Below are positions 20,880 to 35,470 of a DNA stretch of 64,000 nucleotides, piece by piece. Source of the stretch: a phage; the sequence record NC_100371.1. One strand, written 5' to 3'. A program made the translations under genes and the position numbers. Positions within the stretch are counted from its first letter, which is position 1; every line of letters starts with the position of its first letter. The notes under the pieces are model-generated. The model saw nothing but the letters and a program-made list of their open reading frames with translations. It had not been told where the DNA came from and searched no databases.

Positions 20880-21686
20880 TTGAGCAAGAAAGAGTCCAAC
20901 GACAAATATTACACAGACCCCGAGTATGCAGAATATCTTGTTGGTAAAGTAAAAGGTAAGTATGGGAATTGTGCATACGTTGAGCCTTCTGCTGGAAAGG
21001 GTTCTTTTTCAAAACTATTTTCAGAGATACTGTCGTATGATTTGGTACCAGATCCTGAATTTGAAGGCCCAACCCCGTGTATTAAGGCAAACTTCTTAGA
21101 GGTGTACCCCAAGGCCGATGTATTCATAGGTAATCCTCCATTCGGCAAAAATTCGTCTTTAGCTTGCAAGTTCTTTAACCACTGTGCATCATTGCTAGAG
21201 CCTGGTGGAGCTATAGCCTTCATCTTGCCACGGACTTTTGAAAAAATATTTTTTGCAAACAAACTGGACATGTCGATGCACCTTATTTACAGCGAAAGGT
21301 GCCCCAAGAACTCGTTTTTACTTAACGGCAAACCTTATGACGTGCCATGTGTTTTCCAAATTTGGGAGAAAAAGGTGTGCAATAGGGACCCTGTAGAGAT
21401 CGGGGAGAATAAGTTATTTTCTTTTAGCACACCGGACGATTACGACTTCTGTATAAGACGTGTTGGGTATAATGCTGGGAAAGTATTGGGAGAGGATGAC
21501 CCAAAATCTGAAGAATCAACATATTTCATAAAATCTTTAGTTGATGGTGTTGACAGAGTGTTTGCTGAGTGCTATTCTTCTTTTCAAGAAGAAGCAGGTA
21601 AGACTGCTGGAATGAAGAGTATAGGCAAGAAAGAACTACAATACATTTTGGAGACCAGGTATGATCAAAAGTATAGACTTGACTAA
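20880..21686 (+). CDS. DNA methyltransferase (N6-adenine or N4-cytosine type)
   Basis: Motif I-like VEPSAGKGSF and motif IV GNPPFG; TTG start 4 nt after a GGAGG RBS. Confidence 0.55.
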   Translation: MSKKESNDKYYTDPEYAEYLVGKVKGKYGNCAYVEPSAGKGSFSKLFSEILSYDLVPDPEFEGPTPCIKANFLEVYPKADVFIGNPPFGKNSSLACKFFNHCASLLEPGGAIAFILPRTFEKIFFANKLDMSMHLIYSERCPKNSFLLNGKPYDVPCVFQIWEKKVCNRDPVEIGENKLFSFSTPDDYDFCIRRVGYNAGKVLGEDDPKSEESTYFIKSLVDGVDRVFAECYSSFQEEAGKTAGMKSIGKKELQYILETRYDQKYRLD

Positions 21687-22119
21687 AGAGCTTACTGATG
21701 CAAAAGCTTTTGGTGAGACAGCTGTGCAAAGGGGGCAGGCTATGGGGCTGGCACTACCTTTTGTCTTAAAAGAGCATTTTACAGATTTTCAGCTTATCCG
21801 TGGTGAAAAGGGGATGCTTATTCTGGAGCATAAGCTGAGTAAGAAACGTTATAAAGTTGTTTTTAATTCTAAAGCTCCAACAAAACTTGGATTCAGAACT
21901 TACAATCTCAACCCTTCTTATACTAAGGGTGTTGGAAGAGTGGAACAGCAACATCTCAGTGCTAGAGCTTCTTTAGCCCCTTTGATGCTAAATTTCTCAG
22001 GTGTTGCTTTGGGATACCTGGATAAGAAAAGAGTTCTTCATGTTCGTTTTACAGACTTCGTAACGCTTTTAGCTAACAACGAAGTAGATGAAAAGGGACG
22101 TGTAAAAACAAACTTCTAA
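21661..22119 (+). CDS. hypothetical protein
   Basis: 152 aa; overlaps the methyltransferase 3' end. Confidence 0.4.
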   Translation: MIKSIDLTKELTDAKAFGETAVQRGQAMGLALPFVLKEHFTDFQLIRGEKGMLILEHKLSKKRYKVVFNSKAPTKLGFRTYNLNPSYTKGVGRVEQQHLSARASLAPLMLNFSGVALGYLDKKRVLHVRFTDFVTLLANNEVDEKGRVKTNF

Positions 22120-22134
22120 TAACGTGCAGTATGA

Positions 22135-22338
22135 TTGGAGACCGCAATGACACCAGAGTTAACAATTCCAGACAGCTTTTCAGAAAGCTTTATCCCAGAA
22201 ATGATGAAGAAGATGCAATCACTGCTTGATCAGATTGAGGAGGCTGTTTGGGAAGACGATGCTGTAGTAGCTAACGAGCTGGTAGATAAGTGTAAAAGTA
22301 TTATTGATGCAATTGAAGAATACCACGGAGGTTTTTAA
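22135..22338 (+). CDS. hypothetical acidic protein
   Basis: 67 aa. Confidence 0.4.
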   Translation: METAMTPELTIPDSFSESFIPEMMKKMQSLLDQIEEAVWEDDAVVANELVDKCKSIIDAIEEYHGGF

Positions 22339-22940
22339 TGGATATTATTGTTCTTAATGCTCCACCAAGTTCTGGAAAAGACCATATCGCAGATCTTTTG
22401 TTGGAAGCCATTCCAAACTCGCATCACCGCGAGGTAAAGGAAATGCTATTCAGTGTGGCAATTAAGGCAGCGGGTATTTCACCACAGTTGTGGAATGCAC
22501 TCTATGATCGCCGCTACAAAGAAGAACCGTGCCCGTTCTTAATGATAGACGGCAAGCATGTTTCTCCGCGAGAATGGATGATCCATTGTAGTGAAAATCT
22601 GATTAAACCTATCTTTGGTGAAGACGCTTTCGGTAAGGCCGCAGTCGCATCCTTGAAGAAAGATTTCCCTGAAGGTAAAGGGGTTGTTGTTTACTCCGAT
22701 GGTGGCTTCAAAGAGGAGCTGGCATGCCTTGGCGAGTACGCATACAGCACAGGTGGCGATCTTCTACTGTTCCGTATCCACCGTGCAGGATATGATTGGG
22801 GAAATGATTCCAGAACTTACCTTAGCCTAGAGAAGAACGGGATAAAAGGTATCGAGTTTGATGTTGTTAACCCTGAGGGGTCTCCTTGGGAGTGCGCATC
22901 TGAGATTGTGTGCAAGTATATTGATGCTAAAGAGGTCTGA
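22338..22940 (+). CDS. deoxynucleoside monophosphate kinase
   Basis: P-loop LNAPPSSGKD; similar in size and N-terminal motif to T4 gp1-type dNMP kinases. Confidence 0.5.
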   Translation: MDIIVLNAPPSSGKDHIADLLLEAIPNSHHREVKEMLFSVAIKAAGISPQLWNALYDRRYKEEPCPFLMIDGKHVSPREWMIHCSENLIKPIFGEDAFGKAAVASLKKDFPEGKGVVVYSDGGFKEELACLGEYAYSTGGDLLLFRIHRAGYDWGNDSRTYLSLEKNGIKGIEFDVVNPEGSPWECASEIVCKYIDAKEV

Positions 22941-22945
22941 GAACA

Positions 22946-33774: not shown

Positions 33775-33835
33775 AGGCAAATGAGAATCAGGTTTAAATA
33801 GATCGCTTTTAACTTTCCAACATTAAGGACCTCAC

Positions 33836-34885
33836 ATGAATTTAACACCTCGCAGCACCATGGTACACGGCATGAAAGAAAAACAGAACGGCTTCGAACC
33901 GATGAGTAATAAAATGTTTGGTATGCCTGGTGGTATTATGGAAACATACAGCTACCCAACGCCAGTTGTTGACCACGTGCTTTATATTGACGATCTTGAT
34001 GATTTGCAGGATCATATGTCCCGTTTGCAAACAATTCGTATGGCACAGCCGGAAGAAAGTATCCGTGTAATTGTTAACAGCCCTGGTGGTTGCGTCCACA
34101 TTGCCATGGCGTATTTGCAGGCATTCCGCGAGTCTCAGGCAAGCGTTGTTGTACACGCTGAAGGAATGTGCTGCTCAGCAGGAACAATCTTATGGCTGGG
34201 TTGCAAAGAACGAACTGTGGCTCCGGACACAGAGTTTATGTTCCACTACTATCAAGGTGGCACCTATGGCAACGGTGTGAACATGAATACTCAGGTCAAC
34301 TACTGGAAGAAACGTTTTGAACGCCTGATCGAAAAATACTACGGTGGGGTTCTGACAGAAGATGAGATCGCATCCATCACGGCTGGTGGGGAAGTGTGGT
34401 TGGATGGAGAAGAGCTGGCAGCTCGAACTGGTGCTATCATTCTGGACGATGAAAACATTCAGCGTATTCAGAATGGGCAGAAACCGAAAAAGCTTTTGGC
34501 AAAAAGTGATGAAGAAGGTGTGCTAGGCGAAGCAGGCCTGCCAGAGATTCACCAATGCACATCTCTGGACGAGCTGGTTCACGCTGTTGAGTCTGCAAAA
34601 GCAAATGGTCTGAAAGGTGATGTTCACACTGTGTTCCTGAATCTGCAGATGGAGAGTGGTGAGACCGTTAAGATTGCACTGGGTGAGATTACCTCGGAAG
34701 ATCTGCAGCGATTCTCTGTGGTAGAGCTTCAGGACATTTTGTCCCAATTGAAAACCACCCTGAACGGAGGTGAAGAAGTTCAGGTTAAAGATAAGACCCG
34801 CAAGCGTCTGGTGGACAATATTATTAAAACAGCAAAAGAGCTCAATGAAAAAATCCTGGGCGCAGGAATTATCGAAGAAGCTTAA
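33836..34885 (+). CDS. ClpP-like serine peptidase with C-terminal extension
   Basis: VNSPGGCVHIAMAYLQ and GMCCSAGT resemble ClpP/S14 signatures; acidic C-terminal extension. Confidence 0.45.
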   Translation: MNLTPRSTMVHGMKEKQNGFEPMSNKMFGMPGGIMETYSYPTPVVDHVLYIDDLDDLQDHMSRLQTIRMAQPEESIRVIVNSPGGCVHIAMAYLQAFRESQASVVVHAEGMCCSAGTILWLGCKERTVAPDTEFMFHYYQGGTYGNGVNMNTQVNYWKKRFERLIEKYYGGVLTEDEIASITAGGEVWLDGEELAARTGAIILDDENIQRIQNGQKPKKLLAKSDEEGVLGEAGLPEIHQCTSLDELVHAVESAKANGLKGDVHTVFLNLQMESGETVKIALGEITSEDLQRFSVVELQDILSQLKTTLNGGEEVQVKDKTRKRLVDNIIKTAKELNEKILGAGIIEEA

Positions 34886-34897
34886 ACATTAATCTTA

Positions 34898-34921
34898 AAG
34901 CCCTCTTCGGAGGGCTTTTAT
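34898..34921 (+). terminator. rho-independent terminator
   Basis: AGCCCTC-TTCG-GAGGGCT hairpin followed by TTTTA. Confidence 0.55.
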
Positions 34922-34936
34922 GATCTGGAGATTTGC

Positions 34937-35470
34937 ATGACTTGTGCTAGAAAACCTGACGAACAACGTAACGCCTATGATGAATATGTGACACCAGAGT
35001 GGTGTGCAGAAGGGTTGTATGACCTCATTCCGTTCCCAGAAGATTGGACCTATTTGGAGCCTTGCAGGAATAGCGCCTCAGGTGTGTTCTACTCCCGTAT
35101 GCCGTTAGGATCTGCATGGGGAGAAATCCAAGAAGGTGTTGACTATCTGAATACAGAATACAACCATGTTGACTGTATTATCACCAACCCGCCGTACAGC
35201 CTGGCTCGTGAGTTTGTGGACAAGGCGTTGAAAGATGCCGACGTAGTTATTATGCTTTTGCGTCTTAATTTTCTGGAAAGCAAGGCCAGATTTGAATGGT
35301 GGCTTGATAATGCCCCTACCACTGTGATCACAATATCTAAGCGTCCATCATTCCAATCGAATGGCAGAACTGACGGGCAAGCATATGCATATTTTGTGTG
35401 GGACAAGAAGAACCGTTTAGACCTACCACCATTTATGTGGTTGGCACCTCCGGAGGCAGACTTGAAATGA
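34937..35470 (+). CDS. DNA N6-adenine methyltransferase, small phage Dam-type
   Basis: 177 aa with ITNPPYS motif IV. Confidence 0.5.
   Translation: MTCARKPDEQRNAYDEYVTPEWCAEGLYDLIPFPEDWTYLEPCRNSASGVFYSRMPLGSAWGEIQEGVDYLNTEYNHVDCIITNPPYSLAREFVDKALKDADVVIMLLRLNFLESKARFEWWLDNAPTTVITISKRPSFQSNGRTDGQAYAYFVWDKKNRLDLPPFMWLAPPEADLK

What the first reader, a model, noticed from the sequence alone, without database searches (positions are those of the whole stretch)
20880..35470. Two unrelated DNA methyltransferases with no restriction partner
One is a 268-aa enzyme with FxGxG-like and NPPF motifs (20880-21686); the other is a small Dam-type enzyme with NPPY (34937-35470). Neither has an adjacent endonuclease, so they are more likely self-protective methylases than restriction-modification systems. 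Specificities are unknown.
Basis: partly seen in the sequence, partly recalled or inferred. Interest (0 to 1): 0.45.

Follow-up and report, generated by a model that had tools for sequence, protein, structure and literature searches.

The report
Two orphan phage adenine DNA methyltransferases
Two genes in this rV5-like E. coli phage are predicted adenine DNA methyltransferases with no restriction enzyme beside them; both are already annotated in over a hundred published phage genomes, are distant relatives of each other, and do not appear to protect these phages broadly against restriction.

Summary
The window is a Vequintavirus (rV5-like) genome, 99.7% identical to phage ECP32. Both ORFs are real, under strong purifying selection, and already annotated in GenBank as putative N6-adenine DNA methyltransferases.

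- **MT1 (20880-21686, 268 aa):** a complete two-domain M.TaqI-like (gamma-class) enzyme. Its bacterial relatives often sit directly upstream of a Type II restriction-enzyme-like gene. The phage copy lacks that gene, so it is an orphan.
- **MT2 (34937-35470, 177 aa):** only the catalytic domain, with no target-recognition domain. It does not reach the curated cut-offs of the phage Dam families.
- **Not unrelated:** profile-profile comparison gives 97.4% probability, E 1e-11, over the whole catalytic domain.
- **Self-protection is unproven:** published plating data show that Vequintavirinae carrying these genes are exceptionally sensitive to six adenine-methylation-based restriction systems. Any protection must therefore be narrow.
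- **New here:** MT1-family genes in five phage lineages always lie next to a small protein of unknown function (here 21661-22119). MT2 is followed by a conserved, translationally coupled 94-aa ORF.

Target motifs remain unknown. Overall this is ordinary and already known.

The parts
20840..20870 (+). Terminator-like hairpin (GGGAGGC-TTGC-GCCTCCC) plus T tract, between the DnaQ-like exonuclease gene (stop at 20834) and MT1
   Evidence: Top-scoring terminator-like site; sequence read. There is no room for a promoter before the MT1 start, so expression by read-through is inferred.
20871..20875 (+). Shine-Dalgarno GGAGG, 4 nt before the TTG start of MT1
   Evidence: Sequence. FV3 and Bas59 records annotate the same 807-nt CDS. 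The Phapecoctavirus and marine homologues start at the equivalent N-terminal position (LSK...), TTG in AV125.
20880..21686 (+). MT1: 268-aa gamma-class (M.TaqI-like) N6-adenine DNA methyltransferase, orphan
20982..21008 (+). MT1 motif I, AdoMet-binding loop E35-P-S-A-G-K-G-S-F43
   Evidence: E35, P36, G39 and F43 invariant in 58 homologues.
21132..21146 (+). MT1 motif IV, catalytic N85-P-P-F-G89
   Evidence: Invariant in 58 of 58 homologues.
21306..21317 (+). MT1 motif VIII-like K143-N-S-F146. The Phe is expected to stack on the flipped adenine, by analogy with M.TaqI.
   Evidence: F146 invariant. Aligns with MT2 R-P-S-F in hhalign. The role is inferred from M.TaqI knowledge.
21381..21683 (+). 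MT1 C-terminal domain (about aa 168-268), TRD-like
21661..22119 (+). p152: 152-aa ORF overlapping the MT1 3' end by 26 nt. Conserved partner of MT1-family genes; function unknown (phrog_9938).
   Evidence: Adjacent to an MT1 homologue in all 5 lineages examined: Vequintavirus, Phapecoctavirus AV125 with swapped order, marine contigs L175/L176, L177 and L178. Only 6 clusters among 1.84 billion representatives. dN/dS up to 0.05. No Pfam, PADLOC or PDB hit.
34897..34921 (+). Hairpin AAAGCCCTC-TTCG-GAGGGCTTT with T-rich tail, after the ClpP-like protease gene (stop at 34885) and before MT2
   Evidence: Read directly. Not listed by the consensus scan, because the T run lies partly inside the stem. 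GGAG at 34927-34930, ATG at 34937.
34937..35470 (+). MT2: 177-aa minimal N6-adenine methyltransferase, catalytic domain only, no TRD
35057..35083 (+). MT2 motif I loop E41-P-C-R-N-S-A-S-G49, with a 2-residue insertion (N45, S46) seen in only 2 of 63 aligned sequences
   Evidence: Column counts.
35186..35197 (+). MT2 motif IV, N84-P-P-Y87
   Evidence: NPP invariant in 63 of 63; position 87 is Y in 44 and F in 19.
35342..35353 (+). MT2 motif VIII-like R136-P-S-F139
   Evidence: R136 invariant; F139 in 62 of 63. Aligned to MT1 K-N-S-F.
35467..35751 (+). p94: 94-aa ORF whose ATG overlaps the MT2 stop (ATGA); unknown function (phrog_12158)
   Evidence: 189 phage records. At least 99% identical at the protein level in 104 records. 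36-55% identical in Mydovirus-, Seunavirus-, Certrevirus-like and Erwinia phages, lying beside the methyltransferase gene in every annotated record listed and in all seven viral contigs checked. 21 synonymous and 0 non-synonymous differences against Bas59. No Pfam or PDB hit.

Best explanation
These are two distantly paralogous, gamma-class (M.TaqI-like) AdoMet-dependent N6-adenine DNA methyltransferases. Neither has a cognate restriction enzyme.

MT1 is a complete small enzyme. Its Rossmann catalytic domain carries motifs X (DKYYTDP), I (EPSAGKGSF), II (D54), IV (NPPF) and VIII (KNSF). A ~100-aa C-terminal domain occupies the position of the target-recognition domain of M.TaqI and M.BseCI. 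MT1 descends from a family whose bacterial members are often the M half of Type II R-M pairs, and the phage copy has no R gene.

MT2 is the same catalytic domain without any recognition domain.

Inferred steps:
- Each enzyme flips a target adenine into the NPP(F/Y)/Phe pocket and methylates N6 at a specific, still unknown sequence on replicating phage DNA.
- Both genes are expressed at a low level by read-through of the terminator hairpin that immediately precedes each of them, within the replication and nucleotide-metabolism gene block.
- The benefit is either protection against a narrow set of restriction enzymes not yet tested, or a phage-internal epigenetic role. Protection is not broad.
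For: Identity:
- PHROG and PADLOC hits, PDB profile hits to M.TaqI, and invariant catalytic motifs.
- High-confidence models.

Paralogy: hhalign 97.4%.

RM ancestry and orphan state:
- 21 of 80 bacterial loci carry a conserved downstream REase_II-like gene.
- That gene is absent from the window.

Functional genes: dN/dS 0.01-0.03. MT1 is in all ~120 Vequintavirus records plus Phapecoctavirus. MT2 is in 543 phage records.

Existing annotation: GenBank records label both as putative N6-adenine MTases. Olsen et al. note methyltransferases in all their vequintaviruses.

Not a broad shield: BASEL data.
Against: - No methylation data for any Vequintavirus were found.
- Neither protein reaches a Pfam or NCBIfam curated cut-off.
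- MT2 has no recognition domain, so how it would select a DNA sequence is unexplained.
- Close relatives of this phage are highly restriction-sensitive.
Confidence: 0.7

Rival explanations
1. The methyltransferases have a phage-internal epigenetic role rather than an anti-restriction role. Examples would be marking phage DNA for replication, packaging or late transcription, or distinguishing it from host DNA for a phage nuclease.
For: - MT2 is far more conserved than its neighbours: 57% identity in a contig where the adjacent ClpP-like protease is 27% identical, and at least 99% within Vequintavirus.
- dN/dS is 0.01-0.03.
- Both sit in a fixed position in the replication and nucleotide-metabolism block.
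- Vequintavirinae are exceptionally RM-sensitive despite carrying both genes.
- GATC is not avoided: 377 observed against 340 expected.
Against: - There is no direct evidence for any such role.
- MT1 clearly derives from R-M methylases, the classical source of anti-restriction orphans.
- Only six RM systems were tested in BASEL.
Confidence: 0.25
2. One or both enzymes methylate RNA (host rRNA or tRNA, or the phage's own tRNAs) or a protein glutamine, not DNA.
For: - The best single-domain structural matches are PH1948, METTL5 and Ta1320.
- JGI names some MT1 homologues 'predicted RNA methylase'.
- The NPP(F/Y) motif is shared with METTL5 and HemK-type enzymes (general knowledge).
- The window also encodes six tRNAs and an RNA-repair module.
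- p152 has an invariant Gln.
Against: - The MT1 C-terminal domain superposes only on DNA-MTase recognition domains.
- MT1 matches PADLOC Type II MTase models over its full length, and its bacterial homologues are paired with a restriction-enzyme-like gene.
- The best PDB sequence hits of the MT2 profile are M.TaqI and PacII, ahead of Erm.
Confidence: 0.07
3. The adjacent small ORFs are unrecognised restriction endonucleases, so these are complete phage-borne R-M systems.
For: - The p152/MT1 adjacency is conserved, with gene order swapped between lineages, as happens in R-M systems.
- ORFs overlap or are translationally coupled at both loci.
- Window p152 contains a D42...E56-H-K58 pattern.
Against: - K58 is not conserved, and no acidic residue is invariant in the p152 family. 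The invariant residues are I5, Q26, P33, Y64, P85, S86, K89, G90, R93 and G146.
- p152 has no relation to the bacterial REase-like partner (hhalign probability 0.1%).
- There are no PADLOC, Pfam or PDB hits for p152 or p94.
- At 94 aa, p94 is smaller than any REase known to me (own knowledge, not checked here).
Confidence: 0.05
4. MT2 is inactive on its own and works only with a partner (p94 or MT1) that supplies DNA recognition.
For: - MT2 is a bare catalytic domain.
- Its stop codon overlaps the p94 start, and p94 is co-conserved with it in the rV5-like clade.
- Vequintavirus MT2 has an unusual 2-residue insertion in the motif I loop.
Against: - MT2 homologues of 160-200 aa occur in hundreds of phages without a detectable p94 or MT1.
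- Synteny within one phage clade is weak evidence of a functional link.
Confidence: 0.15

Closest known systems
M.TaqI / M.BseCI (gamma-class Type II N6-adenine DNA methyltransferases)
   Different: MT1 is about 150 aa shorter than M.TaqI, with a much smaller C-terminal domain. MT2 has no TRD at all. Sequence identity is 15-20%. Neither has a cognate REase. Pfam Eco57I is below its cut-off.
PADLOC Type II methyltransferase model PDLC03255/03256 and its bacterial members (Sphingomonadales, Paracoccaceae, Poseidonibacter and others)
   Same: MT1 matches end to end at E 5.9e-33. Identity to bacterial members is 31-43%, plus one 53% MAG contig, and all catalytic and C-terminal invariant residues are shared.
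   Different: About a quarter of the bacterial loci carry a downstream REase_II-like gene. The phage copy instead has the unrelated p152.
Phage 'Dam' family PF05869 / TIGR01712 (small phage N6-adenine methyltransferases)
   Same: Small size (about 170 aa), an N-terminal TP motif, NPPY, and phage origin. MT2 gives weak hits, and one MT2 homologue carries a precomputed PF05869 hit. BFVD structural matches include proteins named phage N-6-adenine-methyltransferase.
   Different: Scores are far below the curated cut-offs (19.2 against 28.1; 16.1 against 97). GATC specificity therefore cannot be transferred to MT2.
METTL5 / PH1948 / Ta1320 (COG2263, rRNA m6A methyltransferases)
   Different: They have no C-terminal recognition domain. 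The genomic associations of the MT1 family are with restriction enzymes, not with the translation apparatus.
Orphan phage DNA methyltransferases in general (for example T4 or T1 Dam; reviewed by Murphy et al. 2013, cited in PMC12210895)
   Same: A methylase gene of R-M ancestry carried without the nuclease by a virulent phage.
   Different: No anti-restriction phenotype is shown here, and relatives are unusually RM-sensitive. Each gene comes with a conserved small neighbour of unknown function.

Membership tests
Gamma-class (M.TaqI-like) N6-adenine DNA methyltransferases | Class I Rossmann AdoMet-dependent methyltransferase fold | tested here: met
Gamma-class (M.TaqI-like) N6-adenine DNA methyltransferases | Motif I (AdoMet loop) lies N-terminal to motif IV (D/N)PP(Y/F/W), with short spacing | tested here: met
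   MT1: E35..F43, then N85-PPF. MT2: E41..G49, then N84-PPY. These residues are invariant or nearly so in the families.
Gamma-class (M.TaqI-like) N6-adenine DNA methyltransferases | Target-recognition domain C-terminal to the catalytic domain | tested here: inconclusive
   MT1 is met in position: 226-252 residues superpose on BseCI, MmeI, TaqI and CamA. MT2 is not met: 144 of 177 residues are catalytic domain and nothing else is present.
Gamma-class (M.TaqI-like) N6-adenine DNA methyltransferases | Curated family score (Pfam Eco57I PF07669, EcoRI_methylase PF13651) | tested here: not met
   MT1 against Eco57I: 17.6 bits, cut-off 25.3. MT2 against EcoRI_methylase: 20.1 bits, cut-off 26.4.
Gamma-class (M.TaqI-like) N6-adenine DNA methyltransferases | Demonstrated N6-adenine methylation of DNA at a defined sequence | not testable with these tools
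   No methylome or biochemical data found for Vequintavirus.
Phage Dam family (PF05869 / TIGR01712) | Score above the curated cut-off | tested here: not met
   MT2: 19.2 bits against 28.1 (PF05869); 16.1 bits against 97.05 (TIGR01712).
E. coli/T4 Dam family (alpha class, MethyltransfD12) | Any match to the family profile | tested here: not met
   No such family listed for either protein at E up to 1.
Type II restriction-modification system | Cognate restriction endonuclease gene adjacent to the methyltransferase | tested here: not met
   The window neighbours p152 and p94 have no REase, Pfam or PADLOC hit. p152 is unrelated to the REase-like partner of bacterial MT1 homologues. The endonuclease VII and HNH genes elsewhere in the window are recombination or homing enzymes according to the annotation.
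Type II restriction-modification system | The methyltransferase belongs to a family used in R-M systems | tested here: met
   MT1 only. PADLOC MTase_II 5.9e-33, full length. 21 of 80 bacterial loci have a downstream REase_II-like gene at E 5e-10. MT2 is weak, at E 1e-3.
METTL5/COG2263 RNA m6A methyltransferases | Single-domain enzyme acting on rRNA with a Trm112-type partner | tested here: inconclusive
   The catalytic domain is structurally closest to this family. However, MT1 has an extra DNA-MTase-like domain and R-M-linked relatives. The substrate was not testable.

The most novel reading that the evidence does not exclude
The two enzymes are not stand-alone orphans but two-gene modules.

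- The MT1 family in phages always travels with the p152 family. That family has only six clusters among 1.84 billion representative proteins and was adjacent to an MT1 homologue in all five lineages examined, with gene order swapped in one of them.
- The recognition-domain-less MT2 is translationally coupled to the highly conserved p94.

The small proteins would be new accessory subunits that target, activate or regulate the methylase. For p152, which has an invariant Gln, the small protein could even be the substrate. The conserved role of the modules would then be something other than classical anti-restriction.
Probability: 0.2. Interest if true: 0.5.

Novelty: already known. Interest (0 to 1): 0.2.

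Why it matters
As stated, the finding adds little. Both genes are annotated as putative adenine methyltransferases in more than a hundred deposited Vequintavirus genomes, and their presence in the genus has been noted in print.

The useful corrections are these:
- The two enzymes are paralogues.
- MT1 is an orphaned Type II R-M methylase.
- MT2 is a bare catalytic domain, not a curated Dam-family member.
- Published plating data argue against broad self-protection.

Vequintaviruses are common candidates for phage therapy and for O157 biocontrol. Knowing which sequences they methylate, and whether that matters for host range, has practical value.

The conserved MT1-p152 gene pair is a small, testable lead on how minimal phage methyltransferases are targeted or controlled.

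Tried and rejected
1. **p152 as a PD-(D/E)xK restriction enzyme.** The D42...E56-H-K58 pattern in the window copy is not conserved (K58 becomes L in AV125). No acidic residue is invariant in the family. Profile comparison with the bacterial REase-like partner gives probability 0.1%. There is no PDB hit.
2. **p94 as a universal partner of MT2.** It is found only in the rV5-like clade. An HMM of p94 finds nothing next to more distant MT2 homologues, including the 88-aa ORF in the same position in L090. It has no Pfam or PDB hit and no relation to p152.
4. **PF26055.** It is listed among the precomputed domains of MT1 homologues, but it did not match in the Pfam copy available and occurs in no paper, so its meaning stayed unknown.
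5. **Specificity from oligonucleotide bias.** GATC is slightly enriched (377 against 340). GTAC is the most depleted 4-mer palindrome (108 against 190). Neither identifies a target.
6. **Literature search for Vequintavirus methylomes or restriction-digest resistance.** Nothing was found. The ClaI result for Certrevirus CB7 is confounded by host Dam.
7. **Conserved neighbours in other bacterial MT1 loci (Sphingomonas).** None matched PADLOC.

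
Full report
**What the window is**

The 16 kb spanning the finding is 99.7% identical to Escherichia phage vB_EcoM-ECP32 and 93-99% identical to more than 110 other Vequintavirus (rV5-like) genomes. In those records the two ORFs are already annotated:
- 'putative N6 adenine methyltransferase' in BASEL phage Bas59, genes bas59_0177 and bas59_0157;
- 'putative DNA N6-adenine methyltransferase' and 'DNA methyltransferase' in FV3;
- 'DNA N6-adenine methyltransferase' and 'DNA methyltransferase' in ECP32.

A survey of coliphages had also noted methyltransferases in all of its vequintaviruses.

**Check of the observation**

Both ORFs are present.

MT1 runs 20880-21686.
- Its TTG start is preceded by GGAGG at 20871-20875.
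- The alternative TTG at 20850, used in the ECP32 record, lies in the loop of the strongest terminator-like hairpin of the region, 20840-20863 plus a T tract.

MT2 runs 34937-35470. It follows a GCCCTC-TTCG-GAGGGC hairpin and a GGAG.

The motifs are real and conserved:
- MT1: D8, T12, E35-P36, G39, F43, D54, N85-P-P-F-G89 and F146 are invariant in 58 homologues.
- MT2: T19, N84-P-P, R109, R118, R136 and Y150 are invariant in 63 homologues.

Both genes are under strong purifying selection against FV3 and Bas59:
- MT1: 22 synonymous and 3 non-synonymous differences.
- MT2: 29-30 synonymous and 1-2 non-synonymous differences.

**What they are**

Neither protein reaches a curated Pfam or NCBIfam threshold, but other evidence is clear.
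- MT1 matches phrog_5172 (E 2.6e-125). It matches the PADLOC Type II methyltransferase model PDLC03255 over its full length (E 5.9e-33).
- MT2 matches phrog_799, 'DNA methyltransferase' (E 5.1e-67).
- Profile searches of the PDB put M.TaqI first for MT2 (E 7.5e-6). For MT1 they put Ta1320, M.TaqI and METTL5 first, all weakly.

AlphaFold models are confident, with pLDDT 93 and 91.

- Two-domain RNA enzymes (Erm, KsgA) align over only 156-172 residues, at 5-6 Å rmsd.
- The C-terminal ~100 residues of MT1 therefore sit where the target-recognition domain sits in gamma-class DNA methyltransferases.

**They are not unrelated**

Profile-profile comparison of the two families gives 97.4% probability, E 1.1e-11, over 144 columns. 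MT2 residues 10-160 correspond to MT1 residues 3-167. Shared family-specific features are D-x-Y-x-T-P, EP(S/C), NPP(F/Y)..SLA..F, (N/P)SF and W(E/D)K. Both proteins also hit phrog_799. MT2 is in effect MT1 without the C-terminal domain.

**Restriction partner**

I scanned one genome per bacterial species with the MT1 alignment. This found 278 relatives, mainly in Sphingomonadales, Paracoccaceae and sponge-associated bacteria.

Clustering the ORFs around the 80 best loci gave one conserved neighbour:
- It is a ~200-220 aa gene directly downstream on the same strand, present in 21 loci.
- Its motifs are QxHGKxFE, FDI, PTSIK and NPKIDSKxQRRLQCS.
- It matches the PADLOC 'Type II restriction enzyme' model PDLC03460 (E 5e-10).

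The MT1 family is therefore a family of R-M methylases. The phage copy lacks that gene, and its own downstream ORF is unrelated to it (hhalign probability 0.1%). This is positive evidence that MT1 is an orphan. No other methyltransferase or restriction enzyme is annotated anywhere in the window.

MT2 homologues were seen only in phage contexts. In rV5-like phages MT2 always lies directly after the ClpP-like protease gene. In one such contig MT2 is 57% identical while the protease is 27% identical.

**Conserved small neighbours (new here)**

The 152-aa ORF at 21661-22119 (p152) overlaps the end of MT1 by 26 nt.
- Its family is tiny: six clusters among 1.84 billion representative proteins.
- In every lineage whose context I could read, it is adjacent to an MT1-family gene:
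  - Vequintavirus, in the order MT1 then p152;
  - Phapecoctavirus AV125, in the order p143 then MT1-like, with a 9-nt gap;
  - marine contigs L175 and L176, with an 8-nt overlap and an MT1 homologue 41% identical;
  - L177 and L178.
- Adjacency kept through a swap of gene order, and across 27-30% identity, argues for a functional link.
- The family has no invariant acidic residue. The invariant residues are I5, Q26, P33, Y64, P85-S86, K89-G90, R93 and G146, including the PS(Y/F)TKGxGR loop. It has no Pfam, PADLOC or PDB match. I see no support for a nuclease.

The 94-aa ORF at 35467-35751 (p94) starts at an ATG that overlaps the MT2 stop.
- It is at least 99% identical at the protein level in 104 genomes, with 21 synonymous and 0 non-synonymous differences against Bas59.
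- It follows the MT2 homologue in Mydovirus-, Seunavirus-, Certrevirus-like and Erwinia phages at 36-55% identity.
- It is not detectable beside more distant MT2 homologues. Its link to MT2 could therefore be clade synteny alone.

**How it most likely works**

Shown:
- the fold;
- an intact AdoMet-binding loop and intact catalytic motifs;
- the R-M ancestry of MT1;
- the absence of a nuclease;
- purifying selection.

Inferred:
- Both enzymes methylate N6 of adenine in specific DNA sequences on replicating phage DNA.
- Each gene sits directly behind a terminator hairpin, with only a ribosome-binding site before the start. MT1 uses TTG here and in Phapecoctavirus AV125. This suggests low, read-through expression from the upstream replication or protease gene.

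The biological pay-off is open. The BASEL study tested phages that carry these same genes and found Vequintavirinae 'exceptionally susceptible' to RM systems, 'lack[ing] any effective protection' under laboratory conditions. The systems tested were EcoKI, EcoCFT_I, EcoRI, EcoRV, EcoCFT_II and EcoP1_I (PMC8594841). From my own knowledge, the well-studied ones among these (EcoKI, EcoRI, EcoRV, EcoP1) are blocked by adenine methylation of their sites. So neither enzyme is a promiscuous adenine methylase in vivo, and any protection must be against other, specific enzymes.

MT2 is a core gene across the wider rV5-like group (MT1 only in Vequintavirus and Phapecoctavirus), and both show very low dN/dS. 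This fits a fixed internal function about as well as a narrow anti-restriction function. Oligonucleotide statistics do not reveal a target: GATC is 377 observed against 340 expected, and GTAC is the most depleted at 108 against 190.

**Comparison with known families**

Both enzymes work like M.TaqI-type gamma-class adenine methyltransferases.
- MT1 meets the fold, motif order, C-terminal domain position and R-M family association criteria. It fails the curated Pfam thresholds.
- MT2 meets the fold and motif criteria but has no recognition domain.
- MT2 is not a member of the phage Dam family PF05869/TIGR01712 by score. It shows no relation to the E. coli/T4 Dam family. 'Dam-type' and any GATC specificity are therefore unsupported.
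- The RNA-methylase resemblance is real at the catalytic-domain level. It is outweighed for MT1 by the second domain and the genomic associations. For MT2 it is less firmly excluded.

**Verdict**

- The feature is already known at the annotation level and is ordinary for a large virulent phage.
- The only modestly new element is the conserved pairing of MT1-family genes with the p152 family, and of MT2 with p94. This is worth a simple co-expression and methylome test.

Noticed in passing
window 5192-6130 (- strand): Cluster of six tRNA genes: Pro, Met, Thr, Ser, Arg, and a 99-nt call that ARAGORN could not type ('tRNA-???', anticodon read as atcc, 5436-5534). The rV5 paper lists a tRNA-Tyr in this set, so the odd call may be that gene with an unusual feature.
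   Followed up: no
window about 9066-12919: RNA-repair and NAD-related block according to the ECP32 annotation: phosphohydrolase, 3'-phosphatase/5'-polynucleotide kinase (- strand), RNA ligase 1 annotated as two consecutive CDSs, and two Sir2-like genes. This looks like a tRNA-repair counter-defence set.
   Followed up: no
window about 29244-31367 (nrdD): The anaerobic ribonucleotide reductase gene is intact here and in ECP32 and Bas59. In FV3 and several other relatives it is split by an HNH homing-endonuclease insertion.
   Followed up: no
L005 6001-7404; L017, L031-L082 (bacterial loci): Bacterial MT1 homologues in 21 of 80 loci are followed by a ~200-220 aa protein family with invariant H10, G11, E15, K19, D46, K56 and an NPKIDSKxQRRLQCS motif. 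It has no Pfam or NCBIfam family and only a PADLOC REase_II match. It is probably a little-described Type II restriction enzyme family.
   Followed up: partly
phage collection hits (e.g. MG065644, MG065682, MG065672): About 20 records named 'Campylobacter phage' (host C. jejuni) are 95-99% identical to E. coli Vequintavirus proteins and DNA. The naming or host assignment of these records looks doubtful.
   Followed up: no
window, whole: GTAC is the most under-represented 4-mer palindrome (108 observed, 190 expected, z -5.9). Several GC-rich 6-mer palindromes are absent (TGGCCA, CGATCG, GGCGCC, GGGCCC). GATC is slightly enriched.
   Followed up: partly
L096-L100 (viral contigs), about 2501-3293: In Seunavirus- and GAP31-like relatives the MT2 reading frame stays open for about 55 extra codons (226-227 aa) and overlaps the p94-homologue gene, which is in another frame. 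This is either a real overlap or a missing stop in that frame.
   Followed up: partly
L004, L007 (metagenome contigs, 230-250 kb): MT1 homologues (~43-44% identity) also occur on very large contigs with ankyrin, ART-PolyVal, patatin and RCC1-repeat genes. This suggests giant-virus or jumbo-phage hosts for this methylase family.
   Followed up: no
window 61633-62091 (- strand): A macro-domain protein is annotated among the small early genes in the ECP32 record.
   Followed up: no
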